Sequence record: MT446412.1
DNA length: 64,000 nucleotides
Source of the DNA: Escherichia virus TH41
Reading direction: 5' to 3' (one strand)
Positions 5,237 to 13,571 of the stretch are shown piece after piece (position 1 is the first letter of the stretch; each line of letters opens with the position of its first letter). The translations under genes and the position numbers were made by a program. A model generated the notes under the pieces. That model was given only the letters and a program-made list of their open reading frames with translations, was not told where the DNA came from and made no database searches.

Positions 5237-5312
5237 GGCCCTGTAGCTCAATTGGTTAGAGCATCCGGCTCATAACTGGCAGGTTTCCGGTTCAAGTCCG
5301 GATGGGGCCACC
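5237..5312 (+). tRNA. tRNA with CAU anticodon (Met or lysidine-modified Ile)
   Basis: Cloverleaf by hand: acceptor GGCCCTG/TGGGGCC, D-arm GCTC..GAGC, anticodon loop CTCATAA, T-arm TCCGG-TTCAAGT-CCGGA; one mismatch in anticodon stem. Confidence 0.7.
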
Positions 5313-5389
5313 CGGGGTGTAGCTCAATTGTATAGAGCAACGGTCTTCTAAACCGTAGGTTGTGGGTTAGAATCCCACCACCCCGACCA
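5313..5389 (+). tRNA. tRNA-Arg (anticodon UCU)
   Basis: Acceptor CGGGGTG/CACCCCG, anticodon stem ACGGT/ACCGT, loop CTTCTAA, T-arm GTGGG-TTAGAAT-CCCAC, encoded CCA. Confidence 0.8.
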
Positions 5390-9094: not shown

Positions 9095-9649
9095 ATGAGC
9101 TTATATACTGACCTTCTATCAAATGTAGACTGGTTTGGTGGTAGTGGTCTTGCCACTGAAACTAACACAGTTCTTTATAGAATCCGCGGTGACCTAGGTT
9201 ATTCCAATGATTTCTTAAGAAGAACAACAAGTCGCGGCGATACTACAAAATTGCCTTTTATTTTTGCTTTAGCTGAAGACCTTTCTTTTGCAGATGCCTT
9301 GGAAATTATTGATGTAAATCTGGGTATTCAACGAGTGGAATTCGGCGGGCTGAGTTATTCCGTGTATGCATTAAACGACCCAAGCGATTATAAACAACTT
9401 ATTGATGCGGATGATTATGACCATTTGGTATGTTATTTGATGTTGGAAAATGGTGACCACTTTGGAATGGTTGACCGCCGCCCAACTTATACTGATATTA
9501 AAAATTATGATAAAGATGAGCTTCTTGATTTGGCGGCTGAGTACACATTAGAGAGTCGTAAACGGAAACGTAAGCTTAATCGTTTTATTGCTGAATGTCG
9601 TGAATATGCTAAAGGGGTTCAAAATGCGAACGTTATATCTGCCAAGTAA
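9095..9649 (+). CDS. hypothetical protein with basic RKRKRK segment and FIAEC motif
   Basis: ATG 9095 after GGAGG RBS; 3' end overlaps next gene. Confidence 0.5.
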   Translation: MSLYTDLLSNVDWFGGSGLATETNTVLYRIRGDLGYSNDFLRRTTSRGDTTKLPFIFALAEDLSFADALEIIDVNLGIQRVEFGGLSYSVYALNDPSDYKQLIDADDYDHLVCYLMLENGDHFGMVDRRPTYTDIKNYDKDELLDLAAEYTLESRKRKRKLNRFIAECREYAKGVQNANVISAK

Positions 9650-9983
9650 ACCAGAAAAATTTGTATACGCAGACAAGATTGATAAAGACCTTATGCCTCC
9701 ATTTGGAGCTTTGTCCATGTGCATCGTTGGGGTTATAATGATGGTGCTTTGTGGGGATATGAATATCATTAGTGTTGGAGTCGCCTGGTCACTAATAATT
9801 GCAGCACCTTTTATTACAGTCCTGAGCATGATATTGATAAATGTGTGGCATCAAAATCATATGAATAAAGGATATCGTGGGCGAGTTAAAGAGTGGGAAC
9901 AAAAATGCGTTTCCCTGCAAGAAGAGCACAAAATTAAATGTGCCGAAGAATTTATTAAGGAGGTTCGTAATGGAACGGCCTAG
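9624..9983 (+). CDS. small two-TM membrane protein (FIKE tail family)
   Basis: Two hydrophobic helices then basic segment and ...EEFIKEVRNGTA. Confidence 0.5.
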   Translation: MRTLYLPSKPEKFVYADKIDKDLMPPFGALSMCIVGVIMMVLCGDMNIISVGVAWSLIIAAPFITVLSMILINVWHQNHMNKGYRGRVKEWEQKCVSLQEEHKIKCAEEFIKEVRNGTA

Positions 9984-10323
9984 TCTTGCATCACATGTTT
10001 ATCAATTGGCTGAATATGATATTGGTGCCAATTTATTATTAGGGATTGTCACCGCCATGCTTGGTGGTTTGGTTGGTCTGGTAATGACCACGGTTATGGC
10101 TGCAATCGAGGGAGTCATGCCCATTGAGATGGGTTTCTTTATGATAATCGCTCCGGCTGTTGTGTCTTATTTTATCCCTGTTGTGTATGATATCTGTCAC
10201 ACAAATGCAGTGAATGCTCCTAGTCGGAAGAGATATGGTTCAGCAATGGCTGAGTATAATAAGTTCCTGAACAAAACAAAACGTAATGAACTTGAAACCT
10301 TTATTAAGGAATGTAAATCATGA
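9970..10323 (+). CDS. small two-TM membrane protein (FIKEC tail family)
   Basis: Two TM helices, C-terminus ...LETFIKECKS. Confidence 0.5.
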   Translation: MERPSLASHVYQLAEYDIGANLLLGIVTAMLGGLVGLVMTTVMAAIEGVMPIEMGFFMIIAPAVVSYFIPVVYDICHTNAVNAPSRKRYGSAMAEYNKFLNKTKRNELETFIKECKS

Positions 10324-10610
10324 ATAAAATTGAAATTGCTATCCCCAAGTATTATGATGAGAAATCTGCAGAAAAAGCTATCTATTCTCTTCTAAATAAG
10401 ACCTCTGAAATTGAAAAACACTGTGAAGAAATCGCAGATGAATATGGTATCGAATTCAGCACTGGTGATTACGGCACCGGCCGTACATATCACCCAGTCG
10501 GTTATGAATGTTCCGAATGGTTCGCTCACCATATTGAAAACAACGGCGGACAAGTTGAAAACGGCATTGTTACTGTTGGTGCCTGGGTTTCCTCTTCTGA
10601 GGTGTGCTAA
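10320..10610 (+). CDS. small protein, member 1 of C-terminal W-x-S-S-x-x-C tandem family
   Basis: Ends ...GAWVSSSEVC; ATGA overlap with upstream gene. Confidence 0.55.
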   Translation: MNKIEIAIPKYYDEKSAEKAIYSLLNKTSEIEKHCEEIADEYGIEFSTGDYGTGRTYHPVGYECSEWFAHHIENNGGQVENGIVTVGAWVSSSEVC

Positions 10611-10611
10611 T

Positions 10612-10893
10612 ATGATGAATGATTACCGTAAAAATAAAGAACTGGCTAACGCAGTAAATGACATCCATAAAGCTATTCGTCGTGCTGAGGAAATTGCAAA
10701 CAAATATGAGACTCATTTTAATATATACCCTGCTCGCGGTATGGGCGGTGACTATTATTCTCCTGGCGCCCTGAAAGCTGACCTTGCTCATTGGGAAGAA
10801 CATGGTCATCCTGAATGGGCTATTGTTAATACTCATGACTATACAACTGACCTGGAAAAAGGCGGTTGGGTGTCCTCCTCTTCTGAATGTTAA
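10612..10893 (+). CDS. small protein, member 2 of W-x-S-S-x-x-C tandem family
   Basis: Ends ...GGWVSSSSEC; ATG 1 nt after previous stop. Confidence 0.55.
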   Translation: MMNDYRKNKELANAVNDIHKAIRRAEEIANKYETHFNIYPARGMGGDYYSPGALKADLAHWEEHGHPEWAIVNTHDYTTDLEKGGWVSSSSEC

Positions 10894-10902
10894 GGAACTA
10901 TT

Positions 10903-11100
10903 ATGTCTCGTGAACTAGATTGTGCAATCCGTACTGCCGCGGCAGCTATTGAAAACGTTATCCAGATTTGTAAAGAAGAGCGTGAAGAAGCTGATATCTA
11001 TATCGATGGTGTTCGTGACCTAGAACGACATATCACGCTTTATAATGGTTGTATTACTATTAGTGGTACCTCTTGGGTGTCCTCCTCTTACGAATGCTAA
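10903..11100 (+). CDS. small protein, member 3 of W-x-S-S-x-x-C tandem family
   Basis: Ends ...TSWVSSSYEC; RBS TAAGGAA formed by previous stop. Confidence 0.55.
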   Translation: MSRELDCAIRTAAAAIENVIQICKEEREEADIYIDGVRDLERHITLYNGCITISGTSWVSSSYEC

Positions 11101-11109
11101 GGAAATAAA

Positions 11110-11328
11110 ATGACTGCTAAAACTGTTAAAGAAATTGAAGACCAAATCCGTGCACTAATCTGTGAAGGTGAACAACTGGCCGATAAAACCGGCGAACACT
11201 TCCGTAGCGGTGGCGAAGAATATATTCCAGCTTCTAGTCCGGAATATAACGATTATGAATGGGTTCGTGACGAATATTGTATTCCAGAAGGTGAAGGTTT
11301 CTGGTTTAACTCCTCTATGTCTTGCTAA
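11110..11328 (+). CDS. small protein, member 4 of W-x-S-S-x-x-C tandem family
   Basis: Ends ...GFWFNSSMSC; RBS TAAGGAA. Confidence 0.55.
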   Translation: MTAKTVKEIEDQIRALICEGEQLADKTGEHFRSGGEEYIPASSPEYNDYEWVRDEYCIPEGEGFWFNSSMSC

Positions 11329-11337
11329 GGTGATAAA

Positions 11338-11571
11338 ATGACTACTGCTGTTGAACATGCTGAATTAGAAAAAGCTGCCCTTGAACTGGCTGCACTGTAT
11401 AAGAAAGTAAAAGATATGGCTTTTGCTCAAGATTTCGGTGTTGAGCTTGATGATTATGACGGCGAAGTCCGTCTTGAAGACTGGTTGAACAGTTCTTGTT
11501 ATGGTGAAGAAGCTGGTCGTACCTTCGTTGCTCGTGCCGATGGTAAAATCTGGTACCCAAGTTCATGTTAA
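11338..11571 (+). CDS. small protein, member 5 of W-x-S-S-x-x-C tandem family
   Basis: Contains DWLNSSC and ends ...KIWYPSSC. Confidence 0.55.
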   Translation: MTTAVEHAELEKAALELAALYKKVKDMAFAQDFGVELDDYDGEVRLEDWLNSSCYGEEAGRTFVARADGKIWYPSSC

Positions 11572-11792
11572 AATTGAAAAAACGATACATTCGTAAAATA
11601 AATGGTCTTCGCGATTATGCCAAAGGTTGGCCATTAAATCTTATTATGGCTGATAGACATCCACGTTACAATACCGAGTTGACTTATTACAAAAAGTATG
11701 ATTCGTATTGTCGGTCTAAAGCGGGTCGTTTAGATGGTTCCTATGAAGAATATTTCGGTAAAAAACCTACTCGCATTTCGTTAGGAAAATAA
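11565..11792 (+). CDS. small basic hypothetical protein
   Basis: 75 aa, Lys/Arg/Tyr-rich; start overlaps previous stop. Confidence 0.45.
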   Translation: MLKLKKRYIRKINGLRDYAKGWPLNLIMADRHPRYNTELTYYKKYDSYCRSKAGRLDGSYEEYFGKKPTRISLGK

Positions 11793-11823
11793 TTTAATCA
11801 CAAGGATGTGATAGGAGGACTTT

Positions 11824-12153
11824 GTGCATAAAGATTCAGTATTCAAATATCTTTTGAAAACAGATAAAGAATTCTATATGAATGGGCAAGCTTTCTTGTT
11901 CGTTCGCGGTAAACGTGAGATGTTTTACAAATGCGACCTCTCAATGCATCATCATATGTATCATACCCACGGTGAGTTTATACTGGGGTTCTCTGGTGAC
12001 GAAACCAGACATATAGCTATGTACTACGACCATTTTAAGCTCAATGATTGCGGTGACAACGCTCTGGTCTGGAATCCATCTTGGCGTCGTTGGGATAAGG
12101 TAGACAACGATAAATTATTTTTAGAATATTGTAGAAGCAGTATACAAGTCTAA
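11824..12153 (+). CDS. His-rich hypothetical protein (GTG start)
   Basis: GTG start 7 nt after GGAGGA RBS; motif MHHHMYHTHGE. Confidence 0.45.
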   Translation: MHKDSVFKYLLKTDKEFYMNGQAFLFVRGKREMFYKCDLSMHHHMYHTHGEFILGFSGDETRHIAMYYDHFKLNDCGDNALVWNPSWRRWDKVDNDKLFLEYCRSSIQV

Positions 12154-12217
12154 AAAACTGTGTTACTATACTCCTATCAACTGATGACAATCACGTTATC
12201 AGAACAGGAGAATAAAA

Positions 12218-12418
12218 ATGTCTATCGCAAACGAATTAATCAAAGTTCTGAACGAAGCCAAAGTCAACCAACTGGAGGTTAATCTCCAGGAAGTTTCTGA
12301 TGGCATTAAAGTAACCATCAGTGGTGATTACGCAGGCGTCACAGAACGTGTTTGTGATTCTCTGGAAGAAGTAGTTTCCTGCATTAAAAGAGATATTTAC
12401 GCATACGGTATTATTTGA
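12218..12418 (+). CDS. hypothetical protein
   Basis: 66 aa, GGAG RBS. Confidence 0.45.
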   Translation: MSIANELIKVLNEAKVNQLEVNLQEVSDGIKVTISGDYAGVTERVCDSLEEVVSCIKRDIYAYGII

Positions 12419-12428
12419 GGAAAATATT

Positions 12429-12596
12429 ATGTATAATGTTCTTATTGTTTTTGTCACTCACCCGCAAGGTGGAGTAAGACAGAATACTTCTCAAGTGGTT
12501 CAATTTTCTTCACTAGAGGCCGCCAATCTTGCTGCCTCACGAATTGAAGCGAAAAAATCTGAACTAGGTAAATATGAAGTAACTCGTCTTTATTAA
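12429..12596 (+). CDS. small hypothetical protein
   Basis: 55-aa ORF (below the track cutoff) filling the gap before 12612; GAGGAAAA RBS. Confidence 0.35.
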   Translation: MYNVLIVFVTHPQGGVRQNTSQVVQFSSLEAANLAASRIEAKKSELGKYEVTRLY

Positions 12597-12611: not shown

Positions 12612-13571
12612 ATGATGTTAGTTATTGGTTCTCGTGCATTGCATAACGCTGGTCTGATTGAAAGTCAGAAAATTGAAAATTCTGATTGGGACTTTATCGC
12701 TGACCAAGGTTCTTGGAACCACTTTAAAGCACGTATGTTCGGTGCTCATGTTCCTGTGGATAACCCTAACGTCCAAGCTTTTAAATGTATGTACAATGGC
12801 AAAGAAACCTATTTTGAAGCTTATATTGTCCGTGCCCTGACCAACGTACGAGAAATTACTGGTGAGCTTCAAGACGAAGATTTCACCTCAAGTTATCGTC
12901 TCCTGAAATATGCTGAAAATCATATTAAAAAAGATCGTCTTACAGGTTTTTACTGGGCAACTCCTGATATTTGTCTGGCAATTAAATTATCTCATCGTTA
13001 CCTGAAGAACAATCCATTCTTCCTGAAGACCATGAGTCATATTAATTACCTTCGCAATAAGGGTGTTGTTCTTAATGATGAACTGCAGAAAATCATGTTG
13101 CAGCGTCAGGCAGAAACACTGTCATACAGCCACCCTAAACTAGACGTGGGCAAGAAAACTTTCTTTAATGATACAATCTATACCCTTGACCATGACTCCA
13201 TCCACGAGGCTGTGGCGCTTGCTGATAAGCCTGCATATAAGTTCTATATGAAGGATGATTCAGAAGTCATGACCTCACGTGAAAAATTTGAAGCACTCCC
13301 TGATGTTATTAAACTGGCAGGGGTTTATGAAGAAGCATGTGTGCTTGCTCTGGAGCGTTCGCAGGTTCCAAATGAGTTCAATATCTCTCCATCCGTGAGC
13401 TTCCATATTGCGCTGGAAAAAGTCTGCACCTCCATTACTTCTGGATGGTTCCGTGAGTATGCCTGGGAACATTACCAGGAAGTGGTTAATATGTATAACA
13501 CTCTGGGGCGCGAAGACTATGTTAAACGCTTCAAGGCTAACCAACATTTAATTCGTCCTTTCACAAAATAA
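12612..13571 (+). CDS. hypothetical protein, possible nucleotidyltransferase-fold enzyme
   Basis: 319 aa; N-terminal VIGS(R)...17 aa...SDWDF resembles Pol-beta NTase hG[GS]...DxD, but the spacer is long. Confidence 0.5.
   Translation: MMLVIGSRALHNAGLIESQKIENSDWDFIADQGSWNHFKARMFGAHVPVDNPNVQAFKCMYNGKETYFEAYIVRALTNVREITGELQDEDFTSSYRLLKYAENHIKKDRLTGFYWATPDICLAIKLSHRYLKNNPFFLKTMSHINYLRNKGVVLNDELQKIMLQRQAETLSYSHPKLDVGKKTFFNDTIYTLDHDSIHEAVALADKPAYKFYMKDDSEVMTSREKFEALPDVIKLAGVYEEACVLALERSQVPNEFNISPSVSFHIALEKVCTSITSGWFREYAWEHYQEVVNMYNTLGREDYVKRFKANQHLIRPFTK

What the first reader, a model, noticed from the sequence alone, without database searches (positions are those of the whole stretch)
10320..11571. 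Translationally coupled array of five small paralogs ending in W-x-S-S-x-x-C
Five consecutive ORFs of 65-96 aa each have an N-terminal helical segment, a Gly/aromatic-rich middle, and a C-terminus ending in WVSSSEVC, WVSSSSEC, WVSSSYEC, WFNSSMSC or WYPSSC (the last also has an internal WLNSSC). Members 2 and 3 share a near-identical 3' nucleotide block (tgggtgtcctcctctt..gaatg.taaggaa), indicating recent duplication. The stop codon plus following bases form the RBS (TAAGGAA) of the next member. I do not recognise this family from T4. A diversifying tandem family with a Cys-terminal tail in a hyperplastic region is a good candidate for a host-interaction or anti-defence module.
Basis: seen in the sequence. 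Interest (0 to 1): 0.75.

Follow-up and report, generated by a model that had tools for sequence, protein, structure and literature searches.

The report
Cys-tailed small proteins partnering a phage nucleotidyltransferase
Five back-to-back small phage genes ending in the same W-x-S-S-x-x-Cys tail belong to a widespread, unstudied family that almost always sits beside one nucleotidyltransferase gene, so the two probably work as a pair whose function is unknown.

Summary
Five co-oriented, tightly packed ORFs (96, 93, 65, 72 and 77 aa) at 10320-11571 all end in W-x-(S/N/P)-S-(S)-x-x-C-stop. The window is a T-even phage of the SP18/P896 group.

With the tail removed, m1, m2 and m4 remain clear homologs, and m5 is related at profile level. 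m3 shares only the 12-residue tail.

The family is not local. About 138 clusters at 50% identity share the architecture: N-terminal helix, a YG-x-GG-x-Y-x-P motif, an acidic linker, and G-G-W-x-S-S-S-x-x-Cys at the C-terminus. They are catalogued only as PHROG 899 and 4882, function unknown.

I infer a two-part module in which the tail is what the enzyme modifies or binds. That step is unproven. The genes are under purifying selection, not diversifying, and an anti-defence role is untested.

The parts
10320..10610 (+). m1, 96 aa, pI 4.6, 'GDYGTGRTYHP' type, tail GAWVSSSEVC. Its start overlaps the stop of the upstream e.3-like gene (ATGA).
   Evidence: phrog_899 E 1.3e-21; tail-trimmed profile 55 bits against a shuffle maximum of 7; dN/dS 0.14
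10612..10893 (+). m2, 93 aa, 'ARGMGGDYYSP' type, tail GGWVSSSSEC. Starts 1 nt after the m1 stop.
   Evidence: phrog_899 E 8.9e-20; tail-trimmed profile 56 bits; AF2 pLDDT 60.7 with helix 9-32 and strands 48-50 and 84-87
10903..11100 (+). m3, 65 aa, tail TSWVSSSYEC. Shares only the tail with the family. Has its own PHROG.
   Evidence: phrog_4882 E 2.4e-36; hhalign aligns only the last 12 residues, E 3e-6, and the body gives E 0.17; 31/37 nt 3' block shared with m2
11110..11328 (+). m4, 72 aa, 'SGGEEYIP' type, tail GFWFNSSMSC
   Evidence: phrog_899 E 2.1e-11; tail-trimmed profile 36 bits
11338..11571 (+). m5, 77 aa, double-motif type (EDWLNSSCYGEE ... IWYPSSC). In Aeromonas and Shewanella phages this type lies directly next to the NTase gene.
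   Evidence: phrog_899 E 6.5e-9; hhalign of the m5-type subfamily against the family gives 96% probability; orthologs in L005, L006, L008, L009, L011 and L013
12612..13571 (+). Partner gene: 319-aa DUF7277+DUF7275 protein, a Pol-beta-superfamily nucleotidyltransferase. G6-S7, D25-x-D27, E69 and K125 are invariant. The C-terminal helical domain has invariant H128, H194-D195-x-x-H198, E240-E241 and E248-R249.
9970..10323 (+). Upstream e.3-like membrane-protein gene, a paralog of the e.4-like gene at about 9624-9983. Same strand; its stop overlaps the m1 start.
   Evidence: phrog_2330 / phrog_2604; SP18 annotation. Context only, not shown to be part of the module.

Best explanation
The five ORFs are the small-protein half of a conserved two-part phage module.

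Each is an acidic protein of about 65-96 aa. A typical member has four parts: an N-terminal amphipathic helix ('..EAExIADExGhxF'), a short beta element ('YG-x-GG-x-Y-x-P'), a D/E/G-rich linker of variable length (18-50 aa), and a nearly invariant C-terminal tail G-G-W-x-S-S-S-x-x-Cys-COOH.

The other half is the 319-aa protein at 12612-13571. It is a Pol-beta-type nucleotidyltransferase with an intact catalytic motif. Its closest solved folds are the MenT tRNA-modifying toxins and the small-molecule adenylyltransferases ANT(2'') and LnuA.

Shown: the genes are real and under purifying selection, the family and its tail exist, the fold assignment holds, and the gene linkage is very tight.

Inferred: the tail is the element that engages the enzyme. 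My preferred reading is that the small proteins are its protein substrates. One enzyme would nucleotidylylate a tail Ser hydroxyl or the terminal Cys thiol, possibly followed by further chemistry. It would serve several anciently diverged paralogs whose different bodies carry out different downstream tasks, such as binding different host targets.

I put the existence of the module at about 0.9 and the substrate mechanism at about 0.4.
For: (1) Reverse synteny. A scan of IMG/VR with only the small-protein motif YGMGG[TS]Yx[PG] gave 32 loci, from contigs of 7-390 kb. Thirty have the DUF7277/DUF7275 gene on the same strand within 1.5 kb downstream. One of the two exceptions is cut off by the contig end.

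(2) Forward synteny. All 17 loci reached through a full-length NTase homolog carry 1-5 tail-bearing ORFs nearby. They come from Escherichia, Klebsiella, Serratia, Acinetobacter, Aeromonas, Shewanella, Pseudomonas, Stenotrophomonas and Acidovorax phages and three metagenome contigs, and their flanking genes differ.

(3) The small family is the only family besides the NTase that recurs within 3.5 kb of the NTase gene across 48 loci.

(4) The NTase gene occurs in only 731 of 50,697 phage records, so chance adjacency is negligible.

(5) Tail conservation across 131 cluster representatives: W at -8 in 125, S at -5 in 126, S at -4 in 128, C as the last residue in 131 of 138. It is the only Cys in 72. 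The linker varies in length and is acidic and has low AF2 confidence. That is the pattern of a tethered short motif that inserts into a partner.

(6) Some members carry extra internal W-x-S-S(-x-C) copies, as expected for a modular recognition or modification site.

(7) The enzyme keeps the catalytic G-S...D-x-D...E and K residues and has an NTase fold.

(8) Short (about 255 aa) homologs of the enzyme lack Cys-tail neighbours. Four of the five instead pair with a different adjacent small family, which suggests the enzyme generally works with a small partner.

(9) From my own knowledge, not tested here: Pol-beta NTases that modify partner proteins are known, including MNT acting on HEPN toxins, GlnD on PII, and DrrA on Rab1.
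Against: - No experiment or complex prediction links the tail to the enzyme.
- Gene order, small gene upstream of the NTase, is equally typical of antitoxin-toxin pairs. MenA1, the MenT1 antitoxin, is a short protein that blocks the toxin without being modified (PMC10435456).
- No fusion of a small protein to the NTase was found.
- In the window itself four unrelated ORFs (11565-12596) separate the array from the enzyme gene.
- One viral locus, L042, has a family member with no NTase within 6 kb.
- m3 has the tail but no demonstrable family body.
- The AF2 model of m2 is poor (pLDDT 60.7), so the fold of the small proteins is not established.
Confidence: 0.42

Rival explanations
1. The small proteins are non-covalent partners of the NTase. 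They would be either MenA1-like inhibitors that keep a MenT-like, potentially toxic tRNA- or RNA-modifying enzyme in check, or specificity and adaptor subunits that direct one enzyme to different targets. In this reading the tail plugs or completes the active site without being modified.
For: - The same synteny evidence applies.
- The closest fold is MenT1, whose antitoxin MenA1 is a short protein that blocks MenT1 by binding across two toxin protomers (PMC10435456).
- Several anciently diverged paralogs per single enzyme fits an adaptor role.
- Short enzyme homologs pair with a different small family.
Against: - Antitoxins seldom come as 3-5 divergent paralogs for one toxin.
- They seldom carry a near-invariant terminal Ser/Cys motif across hundreds of lineages. 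Nucleophile-rich invariant tails are more typical of substrates or catalytic arms.
- Profiles of the family do not match MenA1 or any other PDB chain.
- An addiction-type TA pair has no obvious use in strictly virulent phages.
Confidence: 0.28
2. This would be a RiPP-like maturation pathway, a special case of the substrate model. The N-terminal body acts as a leader or docking domain. The enzyme activates a tail Ser by nucleotidylylation. Elimination then gives dehydroalanine, and the terminal Cys adds to it to form a lanthionine- or AviCys-type C-terminal ring.
For: - Several precursor-like genes stand in tandem before one enzyme gene.
- The invariant S(-4)-x-x-C-COOH spacing and the requirement that Cys be the last residue match the S-x-x-C-COOH of the epidermin AviCys ring. 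That comparison is from my own knowledge and was not tested.
- The m5 type and other members have two 'core' copies.
- The enzyme has a second block of invariant His/Asp/Glu residues in its helical domain that could form a second active site.
Against: - No LanB/LanC/LanM/LanKC, LanD, YcaO, radical-SAM, protease or exporter family is detectable in the neighbours (Pfam). No third family recurs across loci.
- The 'core' is conserved and the 'leader' is variable, the reverse of most RiPP families.
- The products, at 65-140 aa with a conserved sequence body, are large for RiPPs.
- NTase-driven Ser elimination has no precedent that I know of.
Confidence: 0.1
3. The small proteins act on their own. 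They could be acidic host-takeover or anti-defence effectors whose tail is read by a host factor or binds a metal. In that case the NTase linkage reflects a shared pathway or co-inheritance in variable regions rather than direct contact.
For: - Small, acidic proteins (pI 4.3-5.6) encoded in the variable e.4-e.2 region.
- Four unrelated ORFs separate the array from the NTase gene in this window.
- L042 lacks the NTase.
Against: - Linkage persists across unrelated phage groups and different flanking genes, with 30 of 31 informative loci in the reverse test. That is far tighter than co-inheritance of unrelated accessory genes would give.
- No hit in PADLOC or any anti-defence-annotated family.
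Confidence: 0.17

Closest known systems
MenAT1 toxin-antitoxin pair of M. tuberculosis (MenT1 nucleotidyltransferase plus the short antitoxin MenA1; PDB 8an4/8an5)
   Different: - No sequence-level membership. Pfam assigns DUF7277/DUF7275, not DUF1814/AbiEii, and sequence identity is about 10%.
- The phage enzyme has a much larger C-terminal helical domain with extra invariant His/Asp/Glu residues.
- The small proteins do not match MenA1.
- They come in 1-5 divergent copies and carry an invariant W-x-S-S-S-x-x-C-COOH tail that MenA1 lacks.
- The system occurs in virulent phages, not bacterial chromosomes.
Nucleotidyltransferases that modify a partner protein: MNT-HEPN type VII TA (AMPylation of the toxin), GlnD-PII (uridylylation). 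From my own knowledge.
   Same: A Pol-beta-fold NTase is encoded next to, and acts on, a small partner protein at a hydroxyl side chain. In GlnD the NTase domain is joined to a second, metal-binding helical (HD) domain.
   Different: - The known acceptors are Tyr residues, not a Ser/Cys C-terminal tail.
- The partners (HEPN, PII) are unrelated in sequence and fold.
- Modification has not been shown here.
Multi-precursor RiPP clusters and C-terminal AviCys/lanthionine rings (e.g. the prochlorosin ProcA/ProcM arrangement; epidermin ...S-Y-C-C-COOH). From my own knowledge.
   Same: Tandem small genes with one enzyme gene. A Ser three residues before an obligatory C-terminal Cys. Repeated 'core' motifs in some members.
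   Different: - No lanthipeptide, LanD or other RiPP enzyme family is nearby.
- The core is conserved and the leader varies.
- The products are proteins of 65-140 aa with a conserved N-terminal body.
- The enzyme is an NTase.
PHROG 899 and PHROG 4882 (phage orthologous groups, function unknown)
   Same: m1, m2, m4 and m5 match phrog_899 (E 1e-21 to 6.5e-9). m3 matches phrog_4882 (E 2.4e-36).
   Different: The PHROG entries carry no function, motif description or partner. The tail motif and the NTase linkage are described here. No paper naming these groups, or DUF7275/DUF7277, was found.

Membership tests
PHROG 899 (small phage proteins, function unknown) | Significant match to the family HMM | tested here: met
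   m1 1.3e-21, m2 8.9e-20, m4 2.1e-11, m5 6.5e-9, aligned to profile columns about 133-221. m3 does not match and falls in phrog_4882 instead.
W-x-S-S-x-x-C tail family (as delineated here) | C-terminal G-x-W-x-S-S-(S)-x-x-Cys, with Cys as the last residue | tested here: met
   All five members. Family logo: W at -8 in 125 of 131, S at -5 in 126, S at -4 in 128. m5 has the shorter W-Y-P-S-S-C form.
W-x-S-S-x-x-C tail family (as delineated here) | Homology of the body (helix plus G-x-GG-x-Y element), independent of the tail | tested here: inconclusive
   Met for m1, m2 and m4 (55, 56 and 36 bits; shuffles reach at most 12). Met at profile-profile level for the m5 type (80% probability, E 1.4e-5, with the terminal tail trimmed but the internal W-x-S-S-C copy still included). 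Not met for m3 (E 0.17).
W-x-S-S-x-x-C tail family (as delineated here) | A DUF7277/DUF7275 NTase-like gene nearby on the same strand | tested here: met
   Window 12612-13571, 1.04 kb downstream of m5. The general rule holds in 30 of 32 and 17 of 17 loci.
MenAT / DUF1814 (AbiEii) nucleotidyltransferase toxin-antitoxin systems | Toxin belongs to DUF1814/AbiEii by sequence | tested here: not met
   Pfam gives only DUF7277 and DUF7275. phmmer and a profile against PDB find no MenT chain.
MenAT / DUF1814 (AbiEii) nucleotidyltransferase toxin-antitoxin systems | MenT-like bi-lobed NTase fold with catalytic Asp and Lys residues | tested here: met
MenAT / DUF1814 (AbiEii) nucleotidyltransferase toxin-antitoxin systems | Small proteins homologous to a MenA/AbiEi antitoxin | tested here: not met
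   Profiles A1 and A5 against all PDB chains, which include the MenAT1 complex 8an5, match only designed helical proteins. Pfam finds nothing.
MenAT / DUF1814 (AbiEii) nucleotidyltransferase toxin-antitoxin systems | NTase is toxic, extends tRNA 3' ends, and is neutralised by its partner | not testable with these tools
   Needs toxicity assays and tRNA-seq. tRNA genes lie near the module in only 4 of 48 loci, so synteny gives no support.
Lanthipeptide / AviCys-type RiPP precursors | Ser/Thr and Cys in a C-terminal core, with Cys as the last residue for AviCys | tested here: met
   S-S-S-x-x-C-COOH tail. The comparison with epidermin is from my own knowledge.
Lanthipeptide / AviCys-type RiPP precursors | Dedicated dehydratase/cyclase (LanB/C/M/KC/L) or LanD decarboxylase, protease or exporter in the cluster | tested here: not met
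   No such Pfam family among 16 proteins around the array. No third recurrent family in 48 loci.
T4 internal (capsid-targeted) proteins, which map nearby in T4 | Homology to IPI/II/III or a capsid-targeting leader | tested here: not met
   No PHROG or Pfam match to internal proteins. By eye I found no capsid-targeting leader with a (L/I)-x-E cleavage site at the N-termini. T4 ipI-III lie elsewhere in the region.
Known anti-defence or defence proteins | Match to a PADLOC model or an annotated anti-defence family | tested here: not met
   PADLOC gives no hit for m1, m2 or m5, and only E 0.018 noise for the NTase. PHROG category is 'unknown function'.

The most novel reading that the evidence does not exclude
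The module could be a previously undescribed protein-modification system of large virulent phages. A MenT/ANT-like nucleotidyltransferase would covalently modify the invariant W-x-S-S-S-x-x-Cys-COOH tail of a set of small acidic proteins. The modification could be O- or S-nucleotidylylation, or NTase-initiated Ser elimination and Cys cyclisation. The resulting nucleotide-tagged or ring-closed effectors would have bodies specialised for different host targets. That would be a new acceptor motif and a new use of the NTase fold. It would be present in thousands of phage lineages, with homologs of the enzyme in giant eukaryotic viruses.
Probability: 0.3. Interest if true: 0.88.

Novelty: new variant of a known kind. 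Interest (0 to 1): 0.7.

Why it matters
- **Scale.** The enzyme family has 2,061 clusters at 90% identity and occurs in 731 of 50,697 deposited phage genomes. The small-protein family has about 138 clusters at 50% identity.
- **Current knowledge.** Both families are catalogued only as DUFs or function-unknown PHROGs. I found no paper on either.
- **What the pairing offers.** It turns two lists of hypothetical proteins into one testable system. The candidate active site (G-S, D-x-D) and candidate acceptor or ligand (the W-x-S-S-S-x-x-C-COOH tail) are both defined.
- **If the tail is modified.** It would add a new type of viral protein modification by a MenT-like enzyme.
- **If the small proteins regulate the enzyme.** It would show that virulent phages carry MenT-like tRNA or RNA nucleotidyltransferases under multi-subunit control. 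That would bear on host shut-off and on the contest with host systems that target tRNA.
- **Annotation errors.** These ORFs are mislabelled in GenBank as 'tail completion protein', 'malate synthase', 'transposase' and 'Ig-like domain'.

Tried and rejected
- **Family libraries.** Pfam, NCBIfam and PADLOC scans of the five proteins gave nothing above noise.
- **Sequence searches against PDB.** Profiles A1 and A5 for the small proteins, and a single sequence and profile A3 for the enzyme, gave no real hit.
- **AF2 of m2.** With a 30-sequence alignment the model reached only pLDDT 60.7, too poor for a fold search. The second and last structure job went to the enzyme, so no deeper small-protein model and no complex model could be made.
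- **The search for related loci.** The 30-sequence A6 worked.
- **afdb50 library.** It was unavailable.
- **A link to tRNA through synteny.** Rejected. tRNA genes are near the module in only 4 of 48 loci.
- **Rosetta-stone fusions.** None found. Over-long NTase ORFs were start-codon artefacts or carried unrelated N-terminal extensions.
- **Three long hits in the exhaustive search** (P0049, P0096, P0124). These are repeat or HAMP-array false positives.
- **Capsid-targeted internal proteins.** Rejected, as there is no homology and no leader.
- **Recent duplication of m2 and m3.** Rejected in favour of local conversion.
- **Diversifying selection.** Rejected (dN/dS 0.06-0.18).
- **Literature.** Searches for DUF7275, DUF7277, phrog_899 and keyword combinations found nothing relevant.
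- **Not done.** I did not check the whole T4 genome for either family. I examined only the syntenic 14 kb.
Full report
**What the window is**

Megablast of 9000-13000 matches T-even phages of the SP18/P896/JS98 group at 86-95% identity. In the SP18 record the homologous stretch lies between the e.4 homolog and e.2/nudE/e. All the ORFs concerned are annotated 'hypothetical protein'. In T4 the syntenic position has e.3 directly followed by e.2, so T4 has no such genes there.

**Checking the observation**

The five ORFs exist as described:
- m1 10320-10610, 96 aa
- m2 10612-10893, 93 aa; the start is the ATGATG at 10612
- m3 10903-11100, 65 aa
- m4 11110-11328, 72 aa
- m5 11338-11571, 77 aa

Their C-termini are WVSSSEVC, WVSSSSEC, WVSSSYEC, WFNSSMSC and WYPSSC. 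m5 also carries an internal WLNSSC.

A regex for the tail followed by a stop finds 8 six-frame hits in the 64-kb window. Five are these ORFs. Shuffled sequence gives about 1 on average and at most 5.

- The upstream stop overlaps the m1 start (ATGA).
- m1 and m2 are 1 nt apart.
- m2/m3 and m3/m4 read TAAGGAA-N5-ATG.
- m4/m5 reads TAAGGTGA-N4-ATG.
- The next ORF's ATG overlaps the m5 stop.

No terminator-like site lies inside the array on the + strand.

All five proteins are acidic, with pI 4.3-5.6. Against SP18, dN/dS is 0.06-0.18, like the neighbouring genes. They are therefore real genes under purifying selection, not diversifying ones.

**Are they paralogs once the tail is masked?**

Pairwise BLAST is weak. 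PHROG profiles place m1, m2, m4 and m5 in phrog_899 and m3 in phrog_4882.

I built a profile from 115 distant family members. None is closer than 40% identity to the window's proteins, and the tail was removed from each. Results:
- m1, m2 and m4, also truncated, score 55, 56 and 36 bits. Shuffled controls reach at most 12 bits.
- m5 fails that test. However, a subfamily alignment of m5-type proteins from eight phages aligns to the family by hhalign at 96% probability. With the terminal tail trimmed (the internal W-x-S-S-C copy remains) it gives 80% and E 1.4e-5.
- The m3 type aligns only over its last 12 residues, and its body gives E 0.17.

The m2/m3 shared nucleotide block is 31 of 37 nt identical and decays to background within about 50 nt upstream. 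That indicates local conversion at the tail and junction, not a recent gene duplication.

**The family at large**

An exhaustive HMMER search of 1.84 billion cluster representatives with a 30-sequence alignment returned 141 hits at E <= 1e-3. Three are long repeat proteins and are false. The rest are 70-144 aa, and the match runs to their C-terminus.

The common architecture is:
- an N-terminal helix ('..EAExIADExGhxFxF')
- 'aYGMGGTYYP', or 'GDYGSGRTYYP' in the m1 type
- an acidic, Gly/Ser/Tyr-rich linker of 18-50 residues
- 'G-G-W-(V/I)-S-S-S-x-x-C'

Tail statistics:
- Among the 131 representatives that end in Cys, W is at -8 in 125, S at -5 in 126 and S at -4 in 128.
- Cys is the last residue in 131 of 138. 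Five more have one extra residue.
- It is the only Cys in 72 of the 131.
- Thirty-two have extra internal W-x-S-S copies, and 13 have internal W..SS..C.

No Pfam, NCBIfam, PADLOC or PDB sequence match exists. AF2 of m2 was of low confidence (pLDDT 60.7). It placed a helix at 9-32 and short strands at 48-50 and 84-87, with the linker and extreme tail below 50.

**The linked gene**

I first noticed the link in Acinetobacter phage DP45. There a three-ORF array of the same family sits after gene 41, a different genomic context. It lies upstream of a 317-aa 'putative nucleotidyl transferase' homologous to window 12612-13571. The window protein is Pfam DUF7277+DUF7275 (E 2e-26 and 1e-75).

Forward test:
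- tblastn finds the enzyme in 731 of 50,697 phage records.
- I fetched neighbourhoods from increasingly distant phages and three metagenome contigs.
- Every locus with a full-length (about 300-345 aa) homolog has 1-5 tail-bearing ORFs within about 2.5 kb. They are usually directly upstream on the same strand.
- The loci are Mosigvirus, Klebsiella, Serratia, Acinetobacter, Aeromonas, Shewanella, Pseudomonas VCM, two Phapecoctavirus, Stenotrophomonas, Acidovorax and L020/L022/L023, plus the window itself, SP18 and EAWsc9.

Reverse test:
- I scanned IMG/VR with only the small-protein motif YGMGG[TS]Yx[PG]. This gave 32 distinct loci from contigs of 7-390 kb.
- Thirty have the enzyme gene (E <= 1e-78) on the same strand within 1.5 kb downstream.
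- One exception is truncated by the contig end.
- One, L042, truly lacks it within 6 kb.

Across 48 loci the small family is the only family besides the enzyme that recurs near it. Flanking genes differ widely (RNR, thyX, nrdD, dexA, gene 41, NAMPT, Sir2 and others). tRNA genes are nearby in only 4 of 48 loci. This is a two-gene-family module, not hitch-hiking.

**What the enzyme is**

A 55-sequence alignment shows these invariant residues:
- G6-S7, D25-x-D27 and E69, which form the Pol-beta NTase signature
- K125, H128, K139
- H194-D195-x-x-H198
- E240-E241, E248-R249
- the block C272-T-S-I-T-S-G-W-F-R-E

AF2 gives pLDDT 92.3 and pTM 0.86.

Fold searches:
- Foldseek against PDB ranks MenT1 (8an4) first, with probability 1.00 and target-normalised TM 0.48-0.51. 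Cid1, Trf4, CCA-adding enzymes, PolX and OAS1 follow.

MenT toxins add nucleotides to tRNA acceptor ends. MenT1 is blocked by a short antitoxin, MenA1, that binds across two toxin protomers. Its catalytic residues are D41, K137 and D152 (PMC10435456).

The phage enzyme is not a sequence-level member of DUF1814. Its helical domain is much larger.

**How it most likely works**

Shown:
- the genes, the family and the tail
- the linkage
- the NTase fold and its intact catalytic motif

Inferred: the tail engages the enzyme. The tail is a near-invariant, nucleophile-rich motif ending in a free Cys carboxylate, at the end of a variable acidic linker.

I favour a substrate model (about 0.4). One enzyme would modify the tail of several anciently diverged paralogs, by Ser-O or Cys-S nucleotidylylation and possibly further chemistry. 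This is analogous to NTases that modify partner proteins, such as MNT-HEPN and GlnD-PII (my own knowledge). A RiPP-like sub-variant involves Ser activation and elimination followed by Cys addition. It is suggested by the S-x-x-C-COOH spacing known from the epidermin AviCys ring (my own knowledge), but no RiPP enzyme family is nearby.

The main rival (about 0.3) is non-covalent partnership, with the small proteins acting as MenA1-like inhibitors or specificity adaptors.

An independent, host-directed role with only pathway-level linkage keeps about 0.17.

**Novelty**

Both families are catalogued only as function-unknown PHROGs and Pfam DUFs. Searches for those identifiers and for keyword combinations found no paper describing the tail, the array or the pairing.

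I rate it a new variant of a known kind: an NTase with a small partner. There is a real chance (about 0.3) that it is a new protein-modification system.

**Limits**

- No complex prediction, no coordinates and no experiments.
- The small-protein fold is not established.
- m3's membership rests on tail and position only.
- The census rests on about 50 sampled loci rather than all genomes.
- Only the syntenic region of T4 was checked.

Noticed in passing
L015 4630-4968 and 5011-5322; L016 4614-4979; L017 4600-4890; L019 3306-3602: Short (about 250-263 aa) homologs of the NTase occur in Streptomyces, Gordonia and two Vibrio phages. They have no Cys-tail neighbours. Instead each sits directly beside a different small family of about 96-121 aa, with the motif '..GGGEG..YCY..DG.YFK.TGYY.SW...W.G...EV.P....I..Y'. 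That family has no Pfam match. This suggests the enzyme family generally works with a small partner, and that the partner type switches with the enzyme subtype.
   Followed up: partly
window 12612-13571 (residues 270-282 of the 319-aa protein): The most conserved block of the enzyme's helical domain, C272-T-S-I-T-S-G-W279-F-R-E, reads like the small proteins' tail (W-x-S-S-x-x-C) written backwards. C272 is present in 35 long forms. The short forms that lack Cys-tail partners mostly have Ile there (2 of 4; one has Cys, one lacks the block). This could be coincidence, or a hint of a Cys-Cys, Trp-Trp or shared-metal contact.
   Followed up: partly
BFVD hits A0A3G5AJ90 (Sylvanvirus) and A0A3G5AE53 (Satyrvirus): DUF7275-domain proteins with the same fold (query-normalised TM 0.70-0.73) occur in giant eukaryotic viruses, as longer proteins of 508 and 571 aa. 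I did not check whether Cys-tail proteins accompany them.
   Followed up: no
e.g. L011 1540-2283, L013 800-1537, L023 5644-6393: A Ser/Thr metallophosphatase (NinI-like) is the next most frequent neighbour of the module, in 10 of 48 loci. That is too infrequent to be a core part. It is still worth noting next to a Ser-rich tail.
   Followed up: no
L042 5983-6261 and 11321-12256: This is the one viral locus with a family member but no DUF7275 gene within 6 kb, from a 306-kb contig. About 5 kb downstream it has an unrelated 312-aa ORF whose N-terminus looks like another NTase motif (MGGNALADFG...HGDIDIL).
   Followed up: no
GenBank records MW233709/MW149274 (m2 ortholog) and PQ341120 (L004 2819-4062): Orthologs of these small ORFs carry evidently wrong product names in public records: 'tail completion protein', 'CAZy families GH13 protein', 'Ig-like domain-containing protein', 'malate synthase' and 'transposase'.
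   Followed up: yes
window 9588-10323: Two overlapping paralogous membrane-protein genes, e.4-like (phrog_2604) and e.3-like (phrog_2330), cross-match each other's profiles. They lie immediately upstream, and the second one's stop overlaps the m1 start. In T4 the same pair, e.4 and e.3, is followed directly by e.2.
   Followed up: partly
window 11565-12596: Four small ORFs of 75, 109, 66 and 55 aa separate the array from the NTase gene in this phage lineage. They have no Pfam match, and only the first, a basic protein (phrog_7065), was scanned against PHROGs. In most other phages the small genes abut the enzyme gene.
   Followed up: partly
P0034 (102 aa, 738-bp metagenome contig): This is an m5-type protein with an N-terminal hydrophobic, transmembrane-like segment (MRFTDILFIIVILVLVGYGVFFY...) joined to the normal m5 body. 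It could be a real membrane-anchored variant or a gene-calling artefact.
   Followed up: no
window 5237-5389: tRNA-Met(CAT) and tRNA-Arg(TCT) genes lie about 5 kb upstream of the array. The same two tRNA species lie immediately downstream of the NTase gene in Shewanella phage Thanatos-2 (L009). Across 48 loci, however, tRNA proximity is not a general feature.
   Followed up: yes
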